Below are positions 34,304 to 45,970 of a DNA stretch of 64,000 nucleotides, one piece after another; position 1 is the stretch's first letter, and each line of letters starts with the position of its first letter. The notes beneath the pieces were generated by a model. The model was given only the letters and a program-made list of their open reading frames with translations. It searched no databases and was not told where the DNA came from. Source of the DNA: a virus; IMG/VR virus record IMGVR_UViG_3300043775_001834, positions 1-64,000 of that record; one strand, written 5' to 3'. Made by a program: the position numbers and the translations under genes.

Positions 34304-34660
34304 ATGAAAAAATTATTATCATTTGACGAGTTCGTAAACGAACATTACAAAATTCAAGAAGCTACCGACGCTGATGGATTTGACCCACAAAATACTACCG
34401 GAGTAGATCCAACAGGACCAGCTTTAACTTCTGTTTCTGAATTACTTCCTGGTAAAGAATATGTTATCACTGTAGATGATACTGTTAATACTGATATGAT
34501 ATATCAAGGTGTAACTGATGGAGTTCACATTTTTAATGGTGAAGATAAAGCTAATGATATTCAGTATACTGATACTGAAATTGCTGATGTTATCGCTAAA
34601 GGTGGATTTGTACAAGTTTTAGAAGGTAATTCTTCTGAAAGTGTAGCTACTGAAGAGTAA
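34304..34660 (+). CDS. Putative internal head protein; shares a module with C-terminus of 31458-33122
   Basis: MKKLLSFDEFVNE leader; SVSELLPGKEYVI...YQGVTDGVHIFN; GATAAATA at 34268. Confidence 0.6.
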   Translation: MKKLLSFDEFVNEHYKIQEATDADGFDPQNTTGVDPTGPALTSVSELLPGKEYVITVDDTVNTDMIYQGVTDGVHIFNGEDKANDIQYTDTEIADVIAKGGFVQVLEGNSSESVATEE

Positions 34661-35932: not shown

Positions 35933-37546
35933 ATGCCAGGATTTGTAAATAGAGACGAAACCTCAAACGGTAAACCAACACCAGCTTCGAGAAACATCGT
36001 CAGTAAAGCACTTAAATCATTATCTTCCTTCGGGATGATGTATGATGATATGGTGCTGAAGAATTCTAAAGCTATCGGTATCAATGAAGACCAATATGGT
36101 TGGAGACTTGATCCGAGAAATGTTGCTGGAGGTGAATATGATGATTATGCACTTTTTGCTAATTTGTCAATGACCGACATCAATCTTCGTAAATCAATTT
36201 CCATCTTTGATAAATCATACCCTAAGAAAAGAGAAGACCTTAGAAAATTCGCTATCCAAGATGAGATAGAAGATATTCTTGATACTCTTTGTGATGAGTG
36301 TGTAGTTTATGACGACAAAAATTACTTTTGTATGCCATTATCTTTTGATGATGATACATTAGAACCTACAACATTAGAAGCAGTTAAAATCGCTTTAGAT
36401 ACTAATTTTAAAAGAATCTATCAATATTTTGGATTCAATAATGATATTGCCGCTTGGTCTTATTTTAGAAAATGGTTAGTTGATGGTTATCTTGCATTTG
36501 AGATAATCTATGACAAAGAACAATCTCGAATCATCGGATTCAAAGAACTTGATCCGATAAATCTTGAACCTGGAATTGACAAAGAAGGTAAGAAAATTTG
36601 GAAACAATTTAAAGGTATGCCAAATAAAGAGAGAGTTGTTTATGATTCTCAGGTTATTTACATCTCTTATGCTAACGTTAATACCGTAAATCGAGTTTCT
36701 TATGTTGAAAGACTTATTCGTTCTTTTAACTTACTTAGGATTATGGAACACTCAAGAGTTATTTGGGCTACCGTTAATGCTTCGTTTAAAACTAAGTTCG
36801 TAATTCCAGTTGGTGGTAAATCGAAAACTAGAGCAAAACAATCTCTTGGAGTTTTAATGCAAAACTACAGAGAGCAAATAGATTTTGATACTGAATCAGG
36901 CGAATTAAAAGTTAATGGTAAAGCAATGATGCCATTTAACAAAGAATATTGGTTACCATCAGGTGATGCTGGTGAACCTACAATTGAGACTATCGGAAAC
37001 GATGGTCCAGACCTTTCAGATACTGATGCTCTTAAATATTTCAGAGAGAAATTAATTAAAGTATCTAAAATTCCACTTTCTCGTTTTGATATGGAATCCC
37101 CACCTTCATGGGAAATGAATGCTGAGGGTATGACTAGAGATGAGATTAAATTTGGACGTTTTGTTACTCGTTTACGTTCAGTTTTTCAAGAAATACTTAC
37201 AAAACCACTTTGGATTCAAATGTGTTTGGACTTCCCTGAAATAAAGGAAGATGATGCATTTAAAGCCCAAATCGGGGTAAAATACAACACAATGAACATC
37301 TTTGAAGAGATGAAAGAAATCGAAATCTTACAGAAAAGATTAGATTTCGTAACTTCAATGAAAGATGGTCTTGTTGATACAGATGCAAACATGAATGAAA
37401 TAAAATACTTTGCATCGGAATTCTTAATTCAAAGATTCTTAGGTTTATCCAACGACGATTTACGTCTTAATAAGAAACTAAAAGGTATCGAAGATGTAGA
37501 AAGAAGAGAAGCTGCAAAAAAGGATGCCGAAGCAACTGGAATGTAA
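35933..37546 (+). CDS. gp20: Portal vertex protein
   Basis: FRKWLVDG, LDP, NLLRIME, EYWLP, KYFREKL..VSKIPLSR, TRDEIKFGRFVTRLR; AATATATA at 35902. Confidence 0.92.
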   Translation: MPGFVNRDETSNGKPTPASRNIVSKALKSLSSFGMMYDDMVLKNSKAIGINEDQYGWRLDPRNVAGGEYDDYALFANLSMTDINLRKSISIFDKSYPKKREDLRKFAIQDEIEDILDTLCDECVVYDDKNYFCMPLSFDDDTLEPTTLEAVKIALDTNFKRIYQYFGFNNDIAAWSYFRKWLVDGYLAFEIIYDKEQSRIIGFKELDPINLEPGIDKEGKKIWKQFKGMPNKERVVYDSQVIYISYANVNTVNRVSYVERLIRSFNLLRIMEHSRVIWATVNASFKTKFVIPVGGKSKTRAKQSLGVLMQNYREQIDFDTESGELKVNGKAMMPFNKEYWLPSGDAGEPTIETIGNDGPDLSDTDALKYFREKLIKVSKIPLSRFDMESPPSWEMNAEGMTRDEIKFGRFVTRLRSVFQEILTKPLWIQMCLDFPEIKEDDAFKAQIGVKYNTMNIFEEMKEIEILQKRLDFVTSMKDGLVDTDANMNEIKYFASEFLIQRFLGLSNDDLRLNKKLKGIEDVERREAAKKDAEATGM

Positions 37547-37602: not shown

Positions 37603-39516
37603 ATGAGCAATAATAAATATCTACTTGTATTAGAAAGATCGGAAGGAAATCTTACATCTTCTAAGGATGGAGATAAATATGTGTTGGAAGGTGTTTTCAC
37701 CGAAATAGGCATTAGAAACAAGAATAATCGTATTTACGATGAAGCTGAGTTAATGCCACACATACAAGACTTACAAGAAAAACTTAAAGGTAATAAATTA
37801 CTTGGAGAACTTGACCACCCTAAATCTTTTGATATATCGTTAAAGAATGCTTCGCATATTATTGAAGACATTCAATACGATAAAGCTAGCAAAAAAGTTA
37901 CTGGTAGAATCAGATTACTTAATACTGATGCTGGAAAACAAGCAATGGCATTAGTAGATGCTGGTGTACCTCTTCATATTTCATCTAGAGCTGCCGGTGT
38001 TGTTGAATCTAATGGCCATGTTAAAATTAAAAAAATGTTTACTTATGATTTAGTTGCAGATCCTGGATTTGCTAATGCCGAATTAAAAAGAGTAAACGAA
38101 TCTTTTGGATTAGACAATGATTCATTGACTCAGATCTACGAAATAGAATCTGATTTGAGTGAATCTGATATGCCAGTTTTAATCTATCAACAAGAAGAAA
38201 CACCCCAAACCACAATAAACGAAACAAAAAACGACAAAATGGATCCTAAAAAATACATTACCGTTGAAGATTTTAACGAATATACTAAACATGTTAAAAA
38301 CGAAGTAGAAAATCTTAAAAAGTCTTTAACCGAATCATCAGCTAAAGATTCTTCATCTGTTAATGAAGGATTGATACGTTACACCGAAGAAACTGCAAAA
38401 AGAGTTAATCAAATTAATTCTTATGTTGAAAAACTAGCAGAATCAGTTGATGGTTTAATTTCTCATAATGATTATATCATTGAAAACCTTGAAAGAGTTA
38501 AAAACTATGCTGAATTAGTTGGTGAAAAATCTAATCAAGGAATTAACTACTCAGAAAAACTTTCTGAATCAGTTGACCACTTAATTGAGTATACTAAATT
38601 AGTTGCTGAAATGAGCGATAGAGGTATTGAATATACTAAAGTAGTTGCAGAAAAAGCAGATCAAGGAATTGAATTTAGTAAATATCTTGCTAACGAATCT
38701 AATTCACGTTGGACTTATCAACAACATATGAATGAACAATTAGATAATGTAATTTCTCATAATGATTATATTGTTGAAGGTACATCATCAATCATTGAAT
38801 ATACTGAATACTTAAAAGAAAATACTCAAAATCTTGCAGGTTACCTTAATCATATCGTTAAAGAAATTAATGAAGGTAAAGTTACTGGTTTAGAAAATGC
38901 TGAATCGATTGATGAAAACGCTATCGTATATTCCACTCCAAATAGGTCAATCTTAGCTAAGGTTGAAGGTAACGAAGAAGATGCATTCGAAAAATCTTTA
39001 ACTGACAAATTGAATACTATTTTAGAAAGCGCTAAATCAGTTAACGAATCAGTAGATGCTAACAAATTACACTTCTTAAATTTCCTATCAGAAAATAAAA
39101 GAAATCAATTTGAGTCATTAACTCCTGAGAAAAAAGACGAAGTTATTGCAGCTTTTGAAGGTAATAAATTTTATGGATCAGTTGATGCTGAAAGATTATA
39201 CGAATCAGTATTTATTGGATTTAAACCGGTTACAAATTGGTTAACTAATATTCCTGCTAAATATAAAGATTCTTGGAATGGTTTAAATGAATCACAAAAG
39301 AATGCTATTAAGGCTCAAGCTTCAGTAAAAGTTTTAGATAACCAATATAAAATCGATGATTTCTGGGCTACCAGAGATTTAAGATCTGTAAAAGTTGATG
39401 CTCCATTAAATGAAGGTGCTGCACCGGCAATTGTTAATGAGTCTGCAGAATATAAAACTCCAGCTAATTATATGGACACTGTACAGGCTGAATTAAGAAG
39501 AAGATTTAACAGATAA
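37603..39516 (+). CDS. gp21: Prohead protease (gp21) fused to coiled-coil scaffold (gp22-like)
   Basis: LEGVF, NKNNRIY, LGELDHP, ISSRAAG, YDLVADPG; then 14-aa periodic helical repeats. Confidence 0.85.
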   Translation: MSNNKYLLVLERSEGNLTSSKDGDKYVLEGVFTEIGIRNKNNRIYDEAELMPHIQDLQEKLKGNKLLGELDHPKSFDISLKNASHIIEDIQYDKASKKVTGRIRLLNTDAGKQAMALVDAGVPLHISSRAAGVVESNGHVKIKKMFTYDLVADPGFANAELKRVNESFGLDNDSLTQIYEIESDLSESDMPVLIYQQEETPQTTINETKNDKMDPKKYITVEDFNEYTKHVKNEVENLKKSLTESSAKDSSSVNEGLIRYTEETAKRVNQINSYVEKLAESVDGLISHNDYIIENLERVKNYAELVGEKSNQGINYSEKLSESVDHLIEYTKLVAEMSDRGIEYTKVVAEKADQGIEFSKYLANESNSRWTYQQHMNEQLDNVISHNDYIVEGTSSIIEYTEYLKENTQNLAGYLNHIVKEINEGKVTGLENAESIDENAIVYSTPNRSILAKVEGNEEDAFEKSLTDKLNTILESAKSVNESVDANKLHFLNFLSENKRNQFESLTPEKKDEVIAAFEGNKFYGSVDAERLYESVFIGFKPVTNWLTNIPAKYKDSWNGLNESQKNAIKAQASVKVLDNQYKIDDFWATRDLRSVKVDAPLNEGAAPAIVNESAEYKTPANYMDTVQAELRRRFNR

Positions 39517-39685: not shown

Positions 39686-41308
39686 ATGTATTTAATTAAC
39701 GAACAAGAAATATTCGGTAAATGGGCTCCAATCATTGAGTCTACTACAGGAATTCAAGAGCGTTCTAGAGTAGAGTGGATGTCTAAATACTGTCATTACC
39801 ATGAATTGTATGAAAACAATAACTTAGCTCAATTAGGCGCAGTAAACGGTATGGGAGCTACAAGATTCCCTGACAGTCCTGGAAGTCAATCTGCTTTCGC
39901 AGACCAAACTACAGGTTCAGGTGATAAAGCTCACACACTTCTTCCATTAGCAATGCAAGTTGCTGCTCAAACTATCGGTCTTGACTTGGTACCAGTTGTA
40001 CCAATGCCTGGTCCAATGGGTGTATTAACATATTTAGACTTCGTATATGCTGGTGGTCAAACATCTTCTACTACAAATGCTCCATTGTTAATCAAAATAA
40101 ACTACGGTTCTACTGCAGTTCCTGCATTCGTAGTTGGTGGAACTTCTGCTGCTACTAATGGTGTTACTCTTGCTTATGTTGGAGCTTCACGTTTAGATGG
40201 TTATCCAATCTTCCACGTTAGAGGTACTCTTTCTGGTGCTACAATCCTTGCAACTTATGCTACTATCTTAGGTGCTTCTGGTATCTCTGGTGTAACTGGT
40301 GCTTCTACTGGATTAAACGTAGAATTAGTAAAAGCTTTAGAAGACCACATTACCGGTTTCTCAGGTACTGCTTTAACAAGCAATGATTATACAGGTTCTG
40401 ATATTAACGATCCTTACTCTAGAAGTTTAGGTGAGTCTACTATGGACAATGTAATGAACTTAAGTCTTTTCAACAAATCAGTTGAAGCTAAAACTTTCCA
40501 AGTTGCAGCTGCTGTTACTAGAGAGCAAGTTCAAGATTTGAAACAATTCGGAGTAGATGCTGTATCTCAAGTAGAATCAGTACTTATCAATGAATTGACT
40601 CAATCAATCAACAAAAACATCCTTTCTAGATTATTTGCTCTTGGAGAAACTAACCACAAAAATGTTGTTAATTCTCAAGGAATCAACTTCTTCTTGAACA
40701 TTGGTGCTACTTCAGTTGTTGTATCAGGTACATCTGCTAACACTCAAACTAACTTTGGTGCTTACATCCAAGATACTACTCTTAGAGCTGCAACTATTCT
40801 TGCTTCTGAGGTTACAAACTCAGCTTCTGAGAATCTTTCAACTCGTCAGAGAAAAATTATGTCTAAGATCCTTGCAATCGCTAACCTTATTGCAATTAGA
40901 GGTCGTAGAGGACCAGCTACTTTCATCGTTACAAACGGTCAAGTATGTTCTGCTCTTCAAGATATAGCTGGTTTCGTTCCTGCTCCTATGGCTAATACTA
41001 TTAACCAAATGAGTGGTTCACTTTACCCAATTGGAACTGTTGCAGGTCTTGCTATCTACAACGATCCTAACATGGCTTGGAACGATACTCGTTTCTTAGT
41101 TGGACGTAAAGGTGATGGTAACTCTCCAGGTTTAGTATTCATGCCTTACTTAATGGCTGAATCAGTACAAACAATTGCTGAAGGAACTATGGCTCCTAAA
41201 GTTGCTGTTAAATCAAGATACGCTTTAGTTGAAGCTGGTTTCCACCCAGAAACTATGTATATCACTTCAGGTGTATTTATGTCTAGCCTTCTTGGTTCTT
41301 TAGTATAA
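39686..41308 (+). CDS. gp23: Major capsid protein (T4 gp23-like)
   Basis: KWAPIIE, DLVPVVPMPGPMG, KSVEAKT, EQVQDLK, RGPATFIV, VFMPY, PKVAVKSRYAL. Confidence 0.93.
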   Translation: MYLINEQEIFGKWAPIIESTTGIQERSRVEWMSKYCHYHELYENNNLAQLGAVNGMGATRFPDSPGSQSAFADQTTGSGDKAHTLLPLAMQVAAQTIGLDLVPVVPMPGPMGVLTYLDFVYAGGQTSSTTNAPLLIKINYGSTAVPAFVVGGTSAATNGVTLAYVGASRLDGYPIFHVRGTLSGATILATYATILGASGISGVTGASTGLNVELVKALEDHITGFSGTALTSNDYTGSDINDPYSRSLGESTMDNVMNLSLFNKSVEAKTFQVAAAVTREQVQDLKQFGVDAVSQVESVLINELTQSINKNILSRLFALGETNHKNVVNSQGINFFLNIGATSVVVSGTSANTQTNFGAYIQDTTLRAATILASEVTNSASENLSTRQRKIMSKILAIANLIAIRGRRGPATFIVTNGQVCSALQDIAGFVPAPMANTINQMSGSLYPIGTVAGLAIYNDPNMAWNDTRFLVGRKGDGNSPGLVFMPYLMAESVQTIAEGTMAPKVAVKSRYALVEAGFHPETMYITSGVFMSSLLGSLV

Positions 41309-41329: not shown

Positions 41330-41361
41330 AAAGAGCTCTTCTCACGAAGAGCTCTTTTTTT
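41330..41361 (+). terminator. Rho-independent terminator after capsid gene
   Basis: AAAGAGCTCTTC-TCAC-GAAGAGCTCTTT followed by T-run. Confidence 0.9.
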
Positions 41362-41410: not shown

Positions 41411-41956
41411 ATGACCTTTATTCTACCTACAAATGTTCTCGGTATACAAAACGAGATGAAAAACTATAAACAATTATGTTTACAGTATGATTATACTCCA
41501 GCACAAAAAGAATATGAAGATATTGTTAGATTCATATTGTTATTTTCTGGAGACGGAATCAGCGAATCTATAATAAATGAAAATTCATCAACACTAGATT
41601 ATCTTTATGAGTCTTTTATAGAGGACCTAAACGAAGCTCATTCATCAACCGATGGAGAAGCTGAATGGGACACCGCAGCTGGAGCAGCAATTGGTACAGT
41701 TAAAAAGGCTGGTGCAATAGCAACTGCTGGTGCAGTAGCAGTAGGAGCTGGAGCAGTTTTAGCAGCTGCGAGTATTGGTTCTTGGATTTCTTATATGTTT
41801 AAGAAGGGTAAAGTTAAAAAGGCAGTAAATAAAGAATATGATGCCGCAGACACACAACTTAATGATTATGCAAAAATATATCAACTCAAATCAAAAAAAG
41901 CAGAGTTAGAAGGAAGAGAAGCTCCTAAAGGTGATTTTCCGGGATATCCAGGCTAA
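41411..41956 (+). CDS. Late protein with long Ala/Gly-rich hydrophobic segment
   Basis: IINE/DLNE sites then AAGAAIG...AGAVAVGAGAVLAAASIG. Confidence 0.6.
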   Translation: MTFILPTNVLGIQNEMKNYKQLCLQYDYTPAQKEYEDIVRFILLFSGDGISESIINENSSTLDYLYESFIEDLNEAHSSTDGEAEWDTAAGAAIGTVKKAGAIATAGAVAVGAGAVLAAASIGSWISYMFKKGKVKKAVNKEYDAADTQLNDYAKIYQLKSKKAELEGREAPKGDFPGYPG

Positions 41957-41966
41957 TATTATAAAT

Positions 41967-43304
41967 ATGAAAACTAATACTATATTTGAAAATCTTCTAC
42001 TTTCCATGTATGAGAAGGCTATTAACGAAAATGAAGAGGTAGATGCCATTACAAAAAAGATTACCGATCTTCGAGCTGAACTTGAAAAAATGAAAGGAGA
42101 TACCGGAGATTCTGCTACATCTAAAAGAGTAAATATCAATAGCGAAATAGATAAACTCGGTAAGGAAAAAGAAGAAGCAAAGAAAAATTCTGAAGATACA
42201 CCTGATGAGGAACCTGAAGAAGATAATAGCAAAGAAATAGAAGCTCAAAAGAAACATATTTCTGATTTAGAAGATAAAATCGAAACTACTAAAGAAAAGG
42301 CAAAAGATCCTAAAAGTCCTCTAAATAATCCTAAAGTTTTACAAAAAGCATTAGAACCCGAAGAAGCTAAATTAAGTGAACTTAAAAATAAATTAGCAGA
42401 TTTAGAAAAAACTACAAAGAAGCCCGAAACTAAAACCGGAACTGAAGTTGAACCGGAAAAGAAAGTTGAACCTGAAAAGAAACTTGAACCTGAAACTGAA
42501 GGTGAACCTGGAGAGAAAGAAGATGAAGGTGATGCAGAAATGAAAGCAAAAAATAAAGAGGCAATTGAGAAGTTAGATGCTCAAATTAAATCTTTAGAAA
42601 AGACTTATGATGATAAAAAGGAATCTACTACCGAGCTTATCAATGCAGCAAAAGAAACTACTGATAAATTAGCTTCTAGCGATATGTTAAAAACTCTAGT
42701 GTCTAAAACTCGTTTAGAAAATAAACTAAAATATCAGAAAAAGATTTTATCAATCGTTGAAGACGATAAAGCTAGAAAAGAATTGTCAGAAATTGTTAAA
42801 AAAGAAGAAGCTGCTTTATCAAAATTGAATACTGAAATCGAAGATGCTCAAAAGAAAGCCGACGAAAAAGGTAAAGACAATCCTGAATATCAAGAGGCAA
42901 AAGAAGCTGCTAAGAAAGCTGATCTTCCTGATTCAACTAAAGATACTGAAAAACGAGGTAATAAAGATATCGATTCTTCGGAAATTGAAGATAGAGACAA
43001 AGATGCAATGATACAATATAAGCTTAAAATTGCATTAGAAAAACAAAAGGGAATATCTACCGCTTGGCAGAAGAAGCAAGATGAAGTAGCAGAAACAGAA
43101 GACGAAGATAAAAAAGCTTCTCTTCAAAAAGCCGCTGACGCTATTGAAAAGAATTTAGATGCTATTAAAACTAGAATAGAAAATCTTGAAAACGGTATTG
43201 ATGAGGCGTCAGATACAGAAATTTGGACTATCATGGCAATGATAAATTTAGTTGAGCAACAAATTGAAAATTTCAGTAACGAATTCATTCCTTTGAATGG
43301 CTAA
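41967..43304 (+). CDS. Highly charged K/E-rich coiled-coil protein (start revised to ATG 41967)
   Basis: Composition; AINE site near N-terminus. Confidence 0.6.
   Translation: MKTNTIFENLLLSMYEKAINENEEVDAITKKITDLRAELEKMKGDTGDSATSKRVNINSEIDKLGKEKEEAKKNSEDTPDEEPEEDNSKEIEAQKKHISDLEDKIETTKEKAKDPKSPLNNPKVLQKALEPEEAKLSELKNKLADLEKTTKKPETKTGTEVEPEKKVEPEKKLEPETEGEPGEKEDEGDAEMKAKNKEAIEKLDAQIKSLEKTYDDKKESTTELINAAKETTDKLASSDMLKTLVSKTRLENKLKYQKKILSIVEDDKARKELSEIVKKEEAALSKLNTEIEDAQKKADEKGKDNPEYQEAKEAAKKADLPDSTKDTEKRGNKDIDSSEIEDRDKDAMIQYKLKIALEKQKGISTAWQKKQDEVAETEDEDKKASLQKAADAIEKNLDAIKTRIENLENGIDEASDTEIWTIMAMINLVEQQIENFSNEFIPLNG
42447..42494 (+). repeat. 18-bp coding tandem repeat (VEPEKK, about 2.7 copies)
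   Basis: GTTGAACCGGAAAAGAAA GTTGAACCTGAAAAGAAA CTTGAACCTGAA. Confidence 0.8.
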
Positions 43305-43806
43305 TTATCATATAAAAAGACAGAACTTAGGTAAAACTCCTACTAAATATGGAATCGTACTTAAAGGACTTCCACCTAGGCATCAACGAATATTAAAGGA
43401 AAATCCAGTAATTAAGAAATATGCTGATGATGACCTTTTCATTAATGCCATATTTAGGATCGAAGATGGGAGAATAAGAGTATCTCATTTGAATCGGCCA
43501 TTTGTTCAACCAGGGTCAAAAGACATATCATCTTATTCATCCGTTAAAGACTCATATAAAGTATTTGATTGGAACTGTGCTTATTGCAATAAAGAAATTC
43601 AATCTCGAATAGACACATATGTTCCGAGTAATTTTACTTGTGAAAAATGTTTCAAATACTACCTTAAGGGTAATGAAAAAATTGACCAACGAGTTATTGA
43701 ATCTTCATTAGCTTTTACCGAAAAATGTAAGAGAATGATGATAGATAATCAGAAATCATTCATAAAATATATACGAAAAAATGAAAAACCGTCTCGCATA
43801 CTTTAA
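43297..43806 (+). CDS. Hypothetical Zn-finger protein
   Basis: CAYC...CEKC. Confidence 0.6.
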   Translation: MANYHIKRQNLGKTPTKYGIVLKGLPPRHQRILKENPVIKKYADDDLFINAIFRIEDGRIRVSHLNRPFVQPGSKDISSYSSVKDSYKVFDWNCAYCNKEIQSRIDTYVPSNFTCEKCFKYYLKGNEKIDQRVIESSLAFTEKCKRMMIDNQKSFIKYIRKNEKPSRIL

Positions 43807-45277
43807 CGAATTTGTAATTAATGAGGCTGTAAAACCGGCACCAAAAAATCCTGTTAAAATTGTACTTCTTTCCAATATTAGTGAGGAATCATACACTGTT
43901 CCTGCAGTTGATAAAGAATGTAAAAAACGTGGAATCGAATTCCGCATCATTGATGTTAATACATGTTCATTGACTAAAAGCTCAGATGGAGATTATTTTA
44001 CTATCGTTGATAAAACCAAGAAACCTTTTAAAATAGATTCAGAAGATACTGCAATTTTAACTCGTAGAGGAATCGTTAGAAATACTTATACTCGAGATAT
44101 TGTATCTCAATTAGAAGATAATAATTTCTTTGTAGTAAACACTTTAAGTTCAGTTTTAGCTTGTGAAAACAAATACGTTACTTCAAAAATACTTATGGAT
44201 GCCGGTCTTCCGGTTCCTAAAATGGCAATGGTCGATGGAGAAGATTCCATTGAACCGGCAGTCGAACAAGTTGGTGGCAATTTTCCGGTAATCCTTAAAA
44301 TGCTTTCCGGTTCACAAGGAATTGGAGTTTCTATTATAGATTCATTAGCATCTCTTAAATCAGTATTACAAACTTTATGGAAAGTCGATCCAACCGTAGA
44401 AACTCTTATACAAGAAAAGATCGAATCAGAATATGATTTACGTATTCACGTTTTAACTAAGCGTTTCAATTCACCTAGACCGGAAGATACTGATTCGGTA
44501 CTTTTAGGTTATATGAGAAGAAACAAAGTTGATAAAGACTTTAGAACTAACTACTCATTAGGCGGTTCAGTTGAAAAAACCAAATTAACACCAGAACAAG
44601 AAAGAATTGCGATCGAATCGGCTAAGGCAGTAGGTTGTAATTGGTGTGGAGTTGATATTATTGTTGATGAGAAAACTGGTAAAAACTATGTACTAGAAGT
44701 TAATTCATCTCCAGGTACACAAGGATTAAAAAAGGCTACTGGTGTAGATGTTATTAAAGACATCATCGATTTTCTATCAGATAGACAAAATTGGATTCGT
44801 TCACGTAGAATTATTGGATTTAGAGAAGTAATTACAATTCCTGGAATTGGTGATATTGTTTCTAAGTTCGATACTGGTAATGGTTCACTTTCATGTTCAT
44901 TAACTTATGATAAAATGAAAATTAGTGAAGATGGCAAACAATGTAATTGGGAATTGAACGGTAAAAAATATGTGCATCAGATAATTGGAATTTCTAATGC
45001 AGAAGTTGGTAATGATATTGATGAAAGACCTATTATAGAAATGGATATCGCATTTGCTGGTAAAACTTACAAAGAAGTTCAAGTTTCATTAGTTAATAGA
45101 ATCGACAAATCTACTAAATTTTTAGTAAATAGGAAATTCATGGAAAGAATTGGTTGTTCAGTATCGCCATATAAAACTTTCGTAGTAACTTCATTTGATG
45201 GTGAATATCATCCAGGTGAAGCTAAAGGAAGTGCACATGCTGGAATAACATTTGAAAATAAAAAAACAAAGAAATAA
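43781..45277 (+). CDS. rimK: RimK-family ATP-grasp ligase fused to C-terminal retropepsin-like (RimB-type) protease, with capsid-targeting-like leader
   Basis: NKY, GLPVPK, FPVILK..GSQGIGV, IQE, DLR, FRTNYSLGG, GVDII, LEVNSSPG; C-terminal KFDTGNG (44870), ERPII, SLVNR...FLVNRKF. Confidence 0.85.
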   Translation: MKNRLAYFNEFVINEAVKPAPKNPVKIVLLSNISEESYTVPAVDKECKKRGIEFRIIDVNTCSLTKSSDGDYFTIVDKTKKPFKIDSEDTAILTRRGIVRNTYTRDIVSQLEDNNFFVVNTLSSVLACENKYVTSKILMDAGLPVPKMAMVDGEDSIEPAVEQVGGNFPVILKMLSGSQGIGVSIIDSLASLKSVLQTLWKVDPTVETLIQEKIESEYDLRIHVLTKRFNSPRPEDTDSVLLGYMRRNKVDKDFRTNYSLGGSVEKTKLTPEQERIAIESAKAVGCNWCGVDIIVDEKTGKNYVLEVNSSPGTQGLKKATGVDVIKDIIDFLSDRQNWIRSRRIIGFREVITIPGIGDIVSKFDTGNGSLSCSLTYDKMKISEDGKQCNWELNGKKYVHQIIGISNAEVGNDIDERPIIEMDIAFAGKTYKEVQVSLVNRIDKSTKFLVNRKFMERIGCSVSPYKTFVVTSFDGEYHPGEAKGSAHAGITFENKKTKK

Positions 45278-45684
45278 TGAGTAAACTACCTACATATGAA
45301 GAATTCTTAAACGAATCTACATCATTAGCGGTTGGCGGAGAACATTGGAATGTGTATATTGCTAACAAAGACACAGAAGTTAAAAATATCAAAGGAACTA
45401 GAAAGGTAAAAGTATCAGTTGGAACTGTAATAAGTGCTGCTGGAGGTGGATATTGGGTAAACATCGATCGTAGTGTTGAAACTGGAATCGAGTCTCTTGA
45501 AGGCAACCCAGATTTTGATGTCCTTAACGATTCAACTTGGCCTAAAACTGTTGAACTAACTAAGGAAATAGAAAAATGGGCAAGAGATACTGATCGTCTT
45601 ATGCAAAGAGACCCTAAAAAGGCACAATCGGTTATCAATAATCGAAACCGAGTTATAGAAGACATTAAAAAATTATTAAAGTAA
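45277..45684 (+). CDS. Putative internal head protein
   Basis: MSKLPTYEEFLNES leader. Confidence 0.65.
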   Translation: MSKLPTYEEFLNESTSLAVGGEHWNVYIANKDTEVKNIKGTRKVKVSVGTVISAAGGGYWVNIDRSVETGIESLEGNPDFDVLNDSTWPKTVELTKEIEKWARDTDRLMQRDPKKAQSVINNRNRVIEDIKKLLK

Positions 45685-45685
45685 T

Positions 45686-45913
45686 ATGGAACACTTACCT
45701 ACATTCAATGAATTCGTAAACGAAAAAGCTGAGAACTATATGACGATAGAAAATCTTAAAACTATCAAAAGAAATGTAGAAATTCTTTTAGCTATGGATC
45801 CCATTAAAATAGACGAAATCTTAAAGAATGGGCATGATTGGGCAGAAGACCACATTTCAGTAGCAAACGAAAACTTAGACCAAGTAACAAAATTCTTTAC
45901 TAACGAACAATAA
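45686..45913 (+). CDS. Putative internal head protein
   Basis: MEHLPTFNEFVNE leader. Confidence 0.65.
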   Translation: MEHLPTFNEFVNEKAENYMTIENLKTIKRNVEILLAMDPIKIDEILKNGHDWAEDHISVANENLDQVTKFFTNEQ

Positions 45914-45940: not shown

Positions 45941-45970
45941 AATCCGACATTTCCTAGTGTCGGATTTTTT
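45941..45970 (+). terminator. Terminator hairpin
   Basis: AATCCGACA...TGTCGGATT followed by T-run. Confidence 0.75.

What the first reader, a model, noticed from the sequence alone, without database searches (positions are those of the whole stretch)
43781..45277. Capsid-tagged RimK ligase fused to a RimB-like protease: a possible injected writer-eraser of glutamylation
Seen: leader MKNRLAYFNEFVINE|A, a complete RimK-type ATP-grasp domain and a C-terminal DTG aspartic-protease-like domain, flanked by other tagged genes. Established: RimK adds glutamates to ribosomal protein S6; Pseudomonas RimB is a poly-glutamate-trimming protease, and the bacterial fusions I know have the protease N-terminal. 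Inference: the phage packages an enzyme that can remodel host ribosome (or other protein) glutamylation immediately on entry, before phage gene expression.
Basis: partly seen in the sequence, partly recalled or inferred. Interest (0 to 1): 0.8.

Follow-up and report, generated by a model that had tools for sequence, protein, structure and literature searches.

The report
Head-tagged phage RimK-RimB glutamylation enzyme
A large uncultured T4-related phage encodes one protein that joins a glutamate-adding ligase (RimK type) to a glutamate-tail-cutting protease (RimB type) behind a short tag like the one phage T4 uses to load proteins into its head, so the enzyme is probably carried in the virion and delivered with the DNA, although packaging, activity and target are untested.

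Summary
ORF 43781-45277 (+, 498 aa) has four parts:
- a 15-residue leader;
- a RimK-family ATP-grasp ligase (above NCBIfam's family cut-off; fold match to RimK, TM 0.90);
- a C-terminal PF05618 retropepsin-like domain with an invariant DTG (family profile against RloA2/DUF785 structures, E 1e-11 to 1e-9; fold confirmed).

The leader motif heads 16 unrelated ORFs on this 77.6-kb phage fragment, against about 0.3 expected by chance. The fragment also encodes a T4-type portal, an S77 prohead protease fused to scaffold, and a gp23-like capsid protein.

More than 550 IMG/VR contigs carry the same ligase-then-protease fusion. 44 of 58 distinct copies begin with a lineage-matched leader.

The Yersinia phage YerA41 homolog was detected in purified virions by LC-MS/MS.

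Packaging is therefore well supported but indirect. Ejection into the host, and ribosomal protein S6 as target, remain analogy.

The architecture is not new. Phage RimK with C-terminal DUF785 was reported from marine metagenomes in 2008, and haloarchaea have the same domain order. I found no paper describing the head-targeting leader on these phage RimK proteins.

This scan has already flagged the same family in at least 24 other genomes.

The parts
43781..45277 (+). Whole ORF, 498 aa: leader, RimK-family ligase and retropepsin-like protease
43781..43825 (+). Residues 1-15, capsid-targeting-like leader MKNRLAYFNEFVINE. Predicted prohead-protease cut after I13-N14-E15, before A16.
   Evidence: Motif shared by 16 ORFs. 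N14, E15 and A16 are nearly invariant in homologs while residues 17-25 vary. Disordered in the model, pLDDT below 50. T4 gp21 cuts after L/I-x-E (PMC9026906).
43856..44143 (+). Residues 26-121, pre-ATP-grasp (RimK_N-like) domain
   Evidence: PF18030 24.2 bits, just below its cut-off. TIGR00768 covers residues 26-330. Foldseek match to RimK.
44165..44773 (+). Residues 129-331, RimK-type ATP-grasp catalytic domain. K173, the G-rich loop SGSQGIGV, R255/N257, D292, E306 and N308 are invariant in homologs.
44801..45190 (+). Residues 341-470, PF05618 (RimB/Rlo/DUF785) retropepsin-like domain
44870..44878 (+). D364-T365-G366, predicted catalytic Asp motif (KFDTGNG)
   Evidence: Invariant in alignments A1 and A2. 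Aligns with the DTG of RloA2. RimB D31 of DTG is required for activity (PMC11957791).
45191..45274 (+). Residues 471-498, C-terminal tail with conserved Y476 and G488-I489-x-F491 in closer relatives. Role unknown; possibly a dimer-interface strand.
   Evidence: short strand at 489-491 in the models
37603..39516 (+). Context: T4-type prohead protease (Peptidase_S77) fused to a scaffold-like region with three internal leader-like motifs
   Evidence: PF03420 47.6 bits, cut-off 27; internal motifs
39686..41308 (+). Context: gp23-like major capsid protein
   Evidence: PF07068 124.6 bits; 57% identical to a 462-kb uncultured phage and 36% to Lak phages
35933..37546 (+). Context: T4-like portal (gp20)
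   Evidence: PF07230 245 bits
45277..45684 (+). Downstream leader-tagged ORF (MSKLPTYEEFLNES...). Its start overlaps the fusion's stop by 1 nt.
45686..45913 (+). Second downstream leader-tagged ORF (MEHLPTFNEFVNEK...)
41330..41357 (+). Terminator-like hairpin after the capsid gene; upstream boundary of the gene block that holds the fusion
45941..45966 (+). Terminator-like hairpin after the tagged ORFs; downstream boundary of the block

Best explanation
The gene encodes a bifunctional enzyme that is cargo of the phage head.

Shown by sequence and fold:
- an intact RimK-family alpha-L-glutamate ligase, joined through a short linker to an intact PF05618 retropepsin-like aspartic protease of the RimB/Rlo kind;
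- ahead of both, a disordered 15-residue leader of the type that heads at least 16 unrelated proteins of this phage.

Inferred from T4 biology:
- The leader (aromatic, x, x, aromatic, aliphatic, then x-E) binds the assembling scaffold core.
- The phage's S77 (gp21-type) prohead protease removes it after I-N-E15.
- This leaves a mature protein of about 54 kDa (residues 16-498) inside the DNA-filled head, and it leaves with the DNA at the next infection.

Inferred from Pseudomonas RimK/RimB:
- In the cell, with ATP and glutamate, the ligase adds alpha-linked glutamates to a C-terminal Glu of a protein, or polymerises free glutamate.
- The fused protease, active only as a dimer formed between subunits of the ligase oligomer, stimulates the ligase and cuts runs of about six or more glutamates.
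- The net output is then limited, dynamic Glu tails and/or free poly-alpha-glutamate, with heavy ATP use.

My odds:
- domain assignments: about 0.97;
- head targeting and processing: about 0.75;
- ejection into the host: about 0.55;
- host ribosomal protein S6 as the main target: about 0.3.
For: Domains: RimK; retropepsin-like. Catalytic residues are invariant across relatives down to 53% identity over the whole protein, and down to 32% identity for the protease domain.

Head machinery of T4 type lies in the same contig: portal, S77 protease plus scaffold, and gp23-like capsid protein.

Leader:
- 16 N-terminal copies against about 0.3 expected.
- Conservation is at the peptide level.
- Three copies lie inside the scaffold protein, as expected of a protease and core-interaction motif.
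- Spacing of the aromatic, aromatic, aliphatic and Glu positions matches the mapped determinants of the T4 capsid-targeting sequence: targeting residues 4 and 7, processing residues 8 and 10. gp21 cuts after L/I-x-E (PMC9026906).

Comparative:
- More than 556 IMG/VR contigs encode the fusion.
- 44 of 58 distinct copies have the leader pattern in the first 30 residues, against 1.1% of interior windows. Most of the rest have near-matches.
- The leader type follows that of neighbouring tagged genes in each lineage.
- Distant 50%-identity cluster representatives also carry it.

Experimental, in a relative: YerA41 g112 / YerA41_066 (473 aa, 33% identical over 86% of the query) is among 63 proteins found by LC-MS/MS in purified virions.

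T4 precedent: proteins fused to the capsid-targeting sequence, including beta-galactosidase, are packaged and delivered into the host.

Gene position: in about 20 loci the fusion lies within 6 kb downstream of the capsid and protease genes. Here it sits in a tight same-strand block bounded by terminator-like hairpins.
Against: - There are no virion data for this phage.
- The YerA41 virion list also holds ribonucleotide reductase, polymerases and helicases, so contamination is possible. That gene is middle-expressed, and its N-terminus does not fit the leader pattern.
- The window's leader has one extra residue (FVINE rather than FVNE).
- In Mosig and Melnitz phages the gene sits among replication genes next to regA, not head genes.
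- The ligase does not reach the S6-ligase equivalog cut-off, and scores similarly against cofactor ligases MptN and CofF.
- The host is unknown.
- No promoter was identified.
- The window's own C-terminal domain is sub-threshold for PF05618. It is assigned through its family profile and fold.
Confidence: 0.6

Rival explanations
1. Cytoplasmic auxiliary enzyme, not cargo. The protein works in the infected cell late in infection, for example by remodelling ribosomes or glutamate pools. The N-terminal motif has another role or is irrelevant for this protein, and any virion presence is incidental.
For: - Cyanophage RimK genes (S-RIM12) have no leader and no protease, and sit among metabolic genes.
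- Mosig, Melnitz and the GOS contigs place rimK beside regA and replication genes.
- The YerA41 gene is middle-expressed, and that virion list includes obvious cytoplasmic enzymes.
Against: - The leader is retained on this enzyme across lineages from 31% to 97% identity, and co-varies with each lineage's leader type.
- Even the protease-less Melnitz RimK has it.
- The motif is otherwise confined to N-termini and the scaffold.
Confidence: 0.17
2. Packaged, but it acts inside the prohead or head rather than in the next host. The prohead protease leaves every fragment with a C-terminal Glu, which is the kind of end RimK extends. The ligase-protease pair could build and trim poly-Glu on scaffold fragments or co-packaged cargo, or make free poly-Glu as an internal polyanion.
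For: - All predicted cleavage products end in ...E.
- A tagged neighbour (34304-34660) and 31 of 52 of its homologs end in Glu, many exactly at a [LIV]-x-E site.
- RimK plus RimB makes free poly-alpha-Glu in vitro.
Against: - It needs ATP and glutamate inside proheads, and there is no precedent for that.
- No conserved acidic-tailed partner lies next to the gene.
- T4 cargo with such leaders is ejected and acts in the host.
Confidence: 0.08
3. The ligase acts on a non-protein acceptor, such as a cofactor or a hypermodified DNA base, as MptN and CofF do on cofactors. The protease-like domain would then be a binding or regulatory module.
For: - NCBIfam scores for MptN (131 bits) and CofF (94 bits) equal or exceed the S6-ligase equivalog (91.5 bits).
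- YerA41 has an uncharacterised thymidine hypermodification of about 1 kDa.
Against: - The YerA41 modification looks like an oligosaccharide.
- The family is spread over many phages with no sign of such DNA modification.
- The invariant DTG and the RimB-like fold point to a peptide substrate.
- RimK-RimB pairing is a conserved protein-directed system in bacteria.
Confidence: 0.05

Closest known systems
Putative marine phage RimK with C-terminal DUF785 (GOS contigs; Monier, Claverie and Ogata 2008, PMC2530865)
   Same: Same family and same architecture: ATP-grasp RimK followed by DUF785/PF05618. They lie on T4-like phage contigs, more than 100 of them, and form a clade distinct from bacterial RimK.
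   Different: That paper did not recognise DUF785 as a protease. It did not note an N-terminal leader or packaging, and it proposed only a general role in translation. The present copy is in a jumbo phage of about 300 kb, related to Lak-like phages and next to the head genes.
Pseudomonas RimK / RimB of the RimABK system (PMC4741518, PMC7343187, PMC11957791; RimK structures 7qyr, 7qys)
   Same: Same two enzyme families. The ligase fold matches at TM 0.90. The protease has the DTG whose Asp is essential in RimB.
   Different: There they are separate proteins, with a c-di-GMP-linked RimA; here they form one chain with no RimA. About 26% identity in the ligase. The target is shown to be S6 in Pseudomonas and is unknown here. 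The Pseudomonas system has no leader and no virion link.
Bacterial RimBK hybrid (Desulfotalea psychrophila DP2392; mostly Flavobacteriales and Rhodobacterales)
   Same: A single-chain fusion of the same two domains. The RimB part is proteolytically active on poly-Glu S6.
   Different: The domain order is protease then ligase; here it is ligase then protease. No leader. RimBK did not glutamylate Pseudomonas S6 in vitro.
T4 internal proteins IPI-III and Alt, with the capsid-targeting sequence and gp21 processing
   Same: A short N-terminal tag with the same spacing of aromatic, aromatic, aliphatic and Glu positions. A T4-type S77 protease, scaffold, portal and capsid protein. Many unrelated cargo proteins share the tag.
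   Different: The cargo is a RimK/RimB enzyme, not a small basic protein or an ADP-ribosyltransferase. The tag consensus ends in N-E. Nothing here has been shown experimentally.
Yersinia phage YerA41 g112 / YerA41_066 ('putative ribosomal protein modification protein', annotated structural protein)
   Same: Homolog with both domains (33% identity over 86% of the query; FDTGN present). Detected in purified virions by LC-MS/MS.
   Different: Its N-terminus does not fit the leader pattern. It is middle-expressed. The authors did not describe the protease domain or a targeting signal.
RloA2 (PA0462), RloA (Pfl01_1762) and Lpg0085 (PF05618 structures 9g59, 9g58, 2pma)
   Same: Best sequence-profile and fold matches of the C-terminal domain.
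   Different: Those are free-standing periplasmic proteases linked to osmotic stress, with DTGA rather than DTGN. They are not fused to a ligase.

Membership tests
RimK family alpha-L-glutamate ligase (TIGR00768 / PF08443) | Scores above the curated family cut-off | tested here: met
   TIGR00768 161.3 bits against cut-off 143.4; PF08443 117.9 bits against 21
RimK family alpha-L-glutamate ligase (TIGR00768 / PF08443) | Pre-ATP-grasp plus ATP-grasp fold | tested here: met
   Foldseek against RimK 7qys: TM 0.90 normalised to the target, E 1e-23
RimK family alpha-L-glutamate ligase (TIGR00768 / PF08443) | ATP/Mg-binding residues of the ATP-grasp site are conserved | tested here: met
   K173, SGSQGIGV loop, E211/E212, R255/N257, D292, E306 and N308 align with Pseudomonas RimK and are invariant in 19 relatives
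Ribosomal protein S6--L-glutamate ligase (equivalog NF007764) | Scores above the equivalog cut-off | tested here: not met
   91.5 bits against cut-off 331, so S6 specificity cannot be assigned
Ribosomal protein S6--L-glutamate ligase (equivalog NF007764) | Adds Glu to the C-terminus of S6 | not testable with these tools
   Needs biochemistry; the host and its S6 are unknown
PF05618 retropepsin-like proteases (RimB / Rlo / DUF785) | Matches the family profile | tested here: inconclusive
   The window's sequence alone scores 14.3 bits against cut-off 27, and NCBIfam RloA2 gives E 2e-5. But a profile of 24 relatives hits 9g59, 9g58 and 2pma at 1.4e-11 to 1e-9, and 16 of 24 relatives hit PF05618.
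PF05618 retropepsin-like proteases (RimB / Rlo / DUF785) | D-T/S-G catalytic motif | tested here: met
   D364-T365-G366 is invariant and aligns with the DTG of RloA2
PF05618 retropepsin-like proteases (RimB / Rlo / DUF785) | Retropepsin fold | tested here: met
   A pLDDT-90 model matches RloA2 and Lpg0085 (TM 0.73-0.78 normalised to the target), then HIV-1 protease
PF05618 retropepsin-like proteases (RimB / Rlo / DUF785) | Homodimer that forms one active site; cleaves runs of Glu | not testable with these tools
   No multimer modelling or assay was available
Bacterial RimBK hybrid | RimB domain N-terminal to RimK | tested here: not met
   The order here is RimK (26-331) then protease (341-470) (for RimBK)
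T4-type capsid-targeting-sequence cargo | Short N-terminal tag with targeting aromatics and an aliphatic-x-Glu processing site | tested here: met
   F8, F11, V12/I13 and E15. The consensus is shared with 15 other ORFs.
T4-type capsid-targeting-sequence cargo | Genome encodes a gp21-type (S77) prohead protease and a scaffold core | tested here: met
   PF03420 47.6 bits at 37603-39516, with a coiled scaffold-like C-terminal part
T4-type capsid-targeting-sequence cargo | Protein is present in virions with the tag removed, and is ejected | not testable with these tools
   The only data are the YerA41 homolog's detection in virions

The most novel reading that the evidence does not exclude
The ligase's real acceptors are the Glu-COOH ends that the prohead protease itself creates on scaffold fragments and co-packaged cargo. 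The fused protease trims the poly-Glu tails it builds. That would be a protein-modification cycle inside the phage head, or on cargo just after ejection. Alternatively the pair makes free poly-alpha-glutamate as a polyanion. Either way the target would not be host ribosomal protein S6.
Probability: 0.08. Interest if true: 0.85.

Novelty: new variant of a known kind. Interest (0 to 1): 0.6.

Why it matters
If the enzyme is packaged and ejected, it would be a virion-delivered glutamylation machine acting before any phage gene is expressed. That would be a new class of injected host-takeover enzyme, alongside T4 Alt.

It would also give a physiological context for the poorly understood RimK/RimB system, and for the poly-alpha-glutamate it makes.

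The family is abundant: more than 550 viral contigs, spanning pelagiphages to jumbo phages. At least two cultured phages carry it (YerA41 and Mosig), so the question is directly testable.

It also extends the T4 capsid-targeting principle to a distant jumbo-phage clade with a large tagged cargo set.

Tried and rejected
- **T4 late promoter.** TATAAATA is not enriched (10 found, 14 expected). The copy nearest the gene, at 41960, overlaps the ATG at 41967, so it cannot serve that ORF. The sigma-70 scan is below shuffle expectation. I make no promoter claim.
- **A phage-encoded substrate with an S6-like ...EE tail.** Tagged ORF 34304-34660 ends in TEE. Its homologs mostly end at a [LIV]-x-E site or in non-acidic residues. 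The tail is better read as a C-terminal propeptide than as a dedicated acceptor.
- **A conserved partner gene.** Only the untagged 169-aa zinc-finger-like ORF upstream (43297-43806) is conserved next to the fusion, in 21 loci. It is not RegA.
- **Fusion restricted to viruses?** A strict-pattern scan of 185,579 species genomes found no close relative. A KFDTGNG-encoding DNA pattern scan found 5 true relatives among 120 loci: short or phage-like contigs binned in Bacteroidota or Firmicutes MAGs, and a Bacteroidota form with a degenerate ligase. The literature also reports the same domain order in Halobacteria. The order is therefore not unique to phages.
- **YerA41 DNA hypermodification as the ligase product.** The modification appears to be an oligosaccharide.
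Full report
**What is there.**
The window is the first 64 kb of a 77.6-kb IMG/VR virus fragment that CheckV rates about 25% complete. A 294-kb IMG/VR contig carries a 97%-identical copy of the gene. The phage has a T4-type head module on the same strand:
- a gp20-like portal at 35933-37546 (PF07230, 245 bits);
- an S77 prohead protease fused to a scaffold-like region at 37603-39516 (PF03420, 47.6 bits, cut-off 27);
- a gp23-like major capsid protein at 39686-41308 (PF07068, 124.6 bits).

The capsid protein is 57% identical to that of a 462-kb uncultured phage and 36% identical to those of Lak megaphages.

**Ligase domain.**
- Pfam gives RimK (PF08443) at residues 129-331, E 5e-34, and a near-threshold RimK_N at 26-121.
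- NCBIfam's RimK-family model TIGR00768 scores 161.3 bits, above its 143.4 cut-off.
- The S6-ligase equivalog scores only 91.5 against 331. That is no better than MptN (131 bits), LysX (102) or CofF (94).
- The domain aligns with Pseudomonas and E. coli RimK structures at E 1e-24 to 1e-21.
- A full-length model (pLDDT 80.8) superposes on RimK 7qys with TM 0.90 normalised to the target.
- The ATP-grasp signature residues (K173, SGSQGIGV, R255/N257, D292, E306, N308) are invariant in 19 relatives down to 53% identity.

It is therefore a competent RimK-family alpha-L-glutamate ligase. Its acceptor cannot be read from the sequence.

**Protease domain.**
- On its own, the window's C-terminal 158 residues are sub-threshold for PF05618 (14.3 bits, cut-off 27).
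- I fetched relatives from IMG/VR and aligned 24 C-terminal domains at 32-70% identity.
- Their profile hits the three solved PF05618 proteins over the whole domain: RloA2 9g59, RloA 9g58 and Lpg0085 2pma, at E 1.4e-11 to 1e-9. The DTG motifs are aligned.
- 16 of the 24 hit PF05618 individually.
- A model built from that alignment (pLDDT 90.2) matches the same structures, and then dozens of HIV-1 protease entries.
- K362, D364, T365, G366, N367 and G368 are invariant.

This is the RimB/Rlo retropepsin-like family. In Pseudomonas RimB the Asp of the DTG is essential (PMC11957791).

**Leader.**
- The pattern aromatic-x-x-aromatic-aliphatic-x(1-2)-Glu starts 16 ORFs of the contig. Examples are MKHIPTYEEFVNES, MSKLPTYEEFLNES and MEHLPTFNEFVNEK.
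- There are 9 internal matches in 23,567 residues: one is itself an alternative N-terminus, three lie in the scaffold protein, and five are unrelated. About 0.3 N-terminal matches are expected by chance.
- Codons under the motif vary synonymously, so the peptide is what is conserved, not an RNA element.
- None of the other tagged ORFs has a recognisable domain.
- The fusion's leader has one extra residue (FVINE instead of FVNE). Close homologs have the canonical form (YFSDFVNEA, SYEDFLNEA). In all of them N14-E15-A16 is nearly invariant, while the following linker varies.
- The leader is disordered in the model.
- In T4, the first 10 residues of IPIII suffice for head targeting. Residues 4 and 7 govern targeting and residues 8 and 10 govern processing. 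gp21 cuts after L/I-x-E. Tag fusions as large as beta-galactosidase are packaged and delivered to the host (PMC9026906; PMC3012670).
- The spacing of the four key positions here is the same.

**Comparative evidence.**
- More than 556 IMG/VR contigs, up to 430 kb, encode the ligase-then-protease fusion.
- Among 58 distinct copies, 44 match the leader pattern within the first 30 residues, against 1.1% of interior 30-residue windows. Most of the remainder are near-matches.
- The leader type changes with lineage: VLDFWSFLNEA, HFENFQMITEA, KFNDFIFES, VPKFKQFITE. It resembles the leaders of neighbouring tagged genes in the same contigs.
- A profile search of 1.84 billion cluster representatives found 2,442 proteins with the domain. 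Among the best 150, the most common complete form is about 440-515 aa with the domain at the C-terminal end, and many of these again have the leader.
- Pelagibacter phage Mosig has the fusion with MQVQPFKNYLEEA.
- Methylophilales phage Melnitz has a leader-bearing RimK that stops at the domain junction.
- Cyanophage S-RIM12 RimK has neither leader nor protease.
- In about 20 loci the fusion lies within 6 kb downstream of the capsid and protease genes.
- In the window it sits in a tightly packed same-strand block (41411-45913) between two terminator-like hairpins.

**Experimental support in a relative.**
Yersinia phage YerA41's homolog is 473 aa and 33% identical over 86% of the query. GenBank annotates it 'structural protein'. 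In the paper it is g112, 'putative ribosomal protein modification protein'. It is one of 63 proteins identified by LC-MS/MS in purified particles. The caveats are real:
- that list also includes ribonucleotide reductase and replication enzymes;
- the gene is middle-expressed;
- its N-terminus does not fit the leader pattern.

**Likely mechanism.**
Shown: two intact catalytic domains, a head-targeting-type leader, and T4-type head machinery.

Inferred:
- The leader docks the protein into the scaffold core.
- The S77 protease removes it after INE15.
- The mature protein of about 54 kDa stays in the head and exits with the DNA.

For the chemistry, the best guide is Pseudomonas.
- RimK glutamylates S6.
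- RimB cuts runs of about six or more Glu regardless of the carrier protein.
- RimB also stimulates RimK ATPase four-fold, and is required for free poly-alpha-glutamate synthesis.
- With both present, net S6 glutamylation is suppressed.

A covalent fusion therefore predicts short or dynamic tails, free poly-Glu and ATP consumption, rather than a simple write/erase switch. S6 remains a reasonable but unproven target, at about 0.3.

**Comparison with what is known.**
The architecture was published in 2008. Monier, Claverie and Ogata found more than 100 GOS contigs with phage-type RimK, several with C-terminal DUF785 (PF05618). They noted the N-terminal arrangement in bacteria and the C-terminal arrangement in Halobacteria (PMC2530865). 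I was led to this paper by earlier notes of this scan and checked it myself.

The bacterial RimBK hybrid has the opposite order. My literature searches turned up no paper that describes:
- the head-targeting leader on these phage RimK proteins;
- a link between that leader and the YerA41 virion data;
- the DUF785 domain of phage RimK read as a RimB-type protease.

This scan has flagged the same family in at least 24 other genomes, with follow-up reports reaching the same reading. I did not use those as evidence.

**Verdict.**
The tag and probable packaging are supported. Injection and the S6 target are not shown.
- The protein is a new functional variant (virion-targeted) of a known enzyme pair, in a family whose domain architecture is already on record.

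Noticed in passing
window 1495, 11569, 11906, 12160, 12821, 29409, 30417, 30753, 33138, 33745, 34304, 45277, 45686, 58582, 58869 (ORF starts): Fifteen further ORFs begin with the same leader. The ten scanned have no Pfam domain at gathering score. The RimK-RimB fusion is the only tagged ORF here with recognisable enzyme domains.
   Followed up: partly
window 37603-39516: The prohead protease is fused to a long scaffold-like region that holds three internal leader-like motifs (GIEFSKYLANE, IIEYTEYLKE, LHFLNFLSE). These are probably self-cleavage or core-interaction sites. The capsid protein also starts MYLINE.
   Followed up: partly
window 34304-34660: This tagged 118-aa ORF ends ...QVLEGNSSESVATEE. 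31 of 52 homologs end in Glu, many exactly at ...VQE. That suggests a C-terminal propeptide after a protease site, so the mature cargo would end in Glu-COOH.
   Followed up: partly
L073:908-3073, L074, L080; P0204, P0217: Relatives of 696-725 aa carry an extra N-terminal domain of about 300 aa with a GRFxPPxxGH motif (nucleotidyltransferase-like by eye; no Pfam hit at 1e-3) ahead of RimK and PF05618. They also have a leader-like start.
   Followed up: partly
L141:6454-7662, L196, L198 (Bacteroidota MAG contigs): Proteins of about 400 aa have an intact KFDTGNG retropepsin domain behind a degenerate ATP-grasp. They give no PF08443 hit, the G-loop and EVN motif are lost, and there is no leader.
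   Followed up: partly
P0109, P0098, P0024 (homologs of the fusion): P0109 carries two leaders in tandem, with an 84-aa leader-headed module fused upstream. P0098 runs on into a next leader at its C-terminus. P0024, P0033 and P0037 (about 571 aa) have a C-terminal extension of about 75 aa with a PF18905 hit.
   Followed up: no
window 43297-43806: An untagged 169-aa ORF with a weak treble-clef zinc-finger hit overlaps the fusion's start by 26 nt. It is conserved immediately upstream in 21 related loci. It is not RegA.
   Followed up: partly
L200 (ONIZ01000001.1, 410-kb scaffold labelled uncultured Firmicutes RUG343); L202 (11-kb contig in a Paludibacteraceae MAG): Contigs in species-representative 'genomes' encode leader-bearing fusions. 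They may be phage sequence binned or deposited as bacterial.
   Followed up: no
L002 (Pelagibacter phage Mosig) 503-712 and 5908-7293: Mosig encodes a ribosomal protein S21 homolog about 5 kb from its RimK-RimB fusion, which lies next to regA. That places two ribosome- or translation-linked genes in one region.
   Followed up: no
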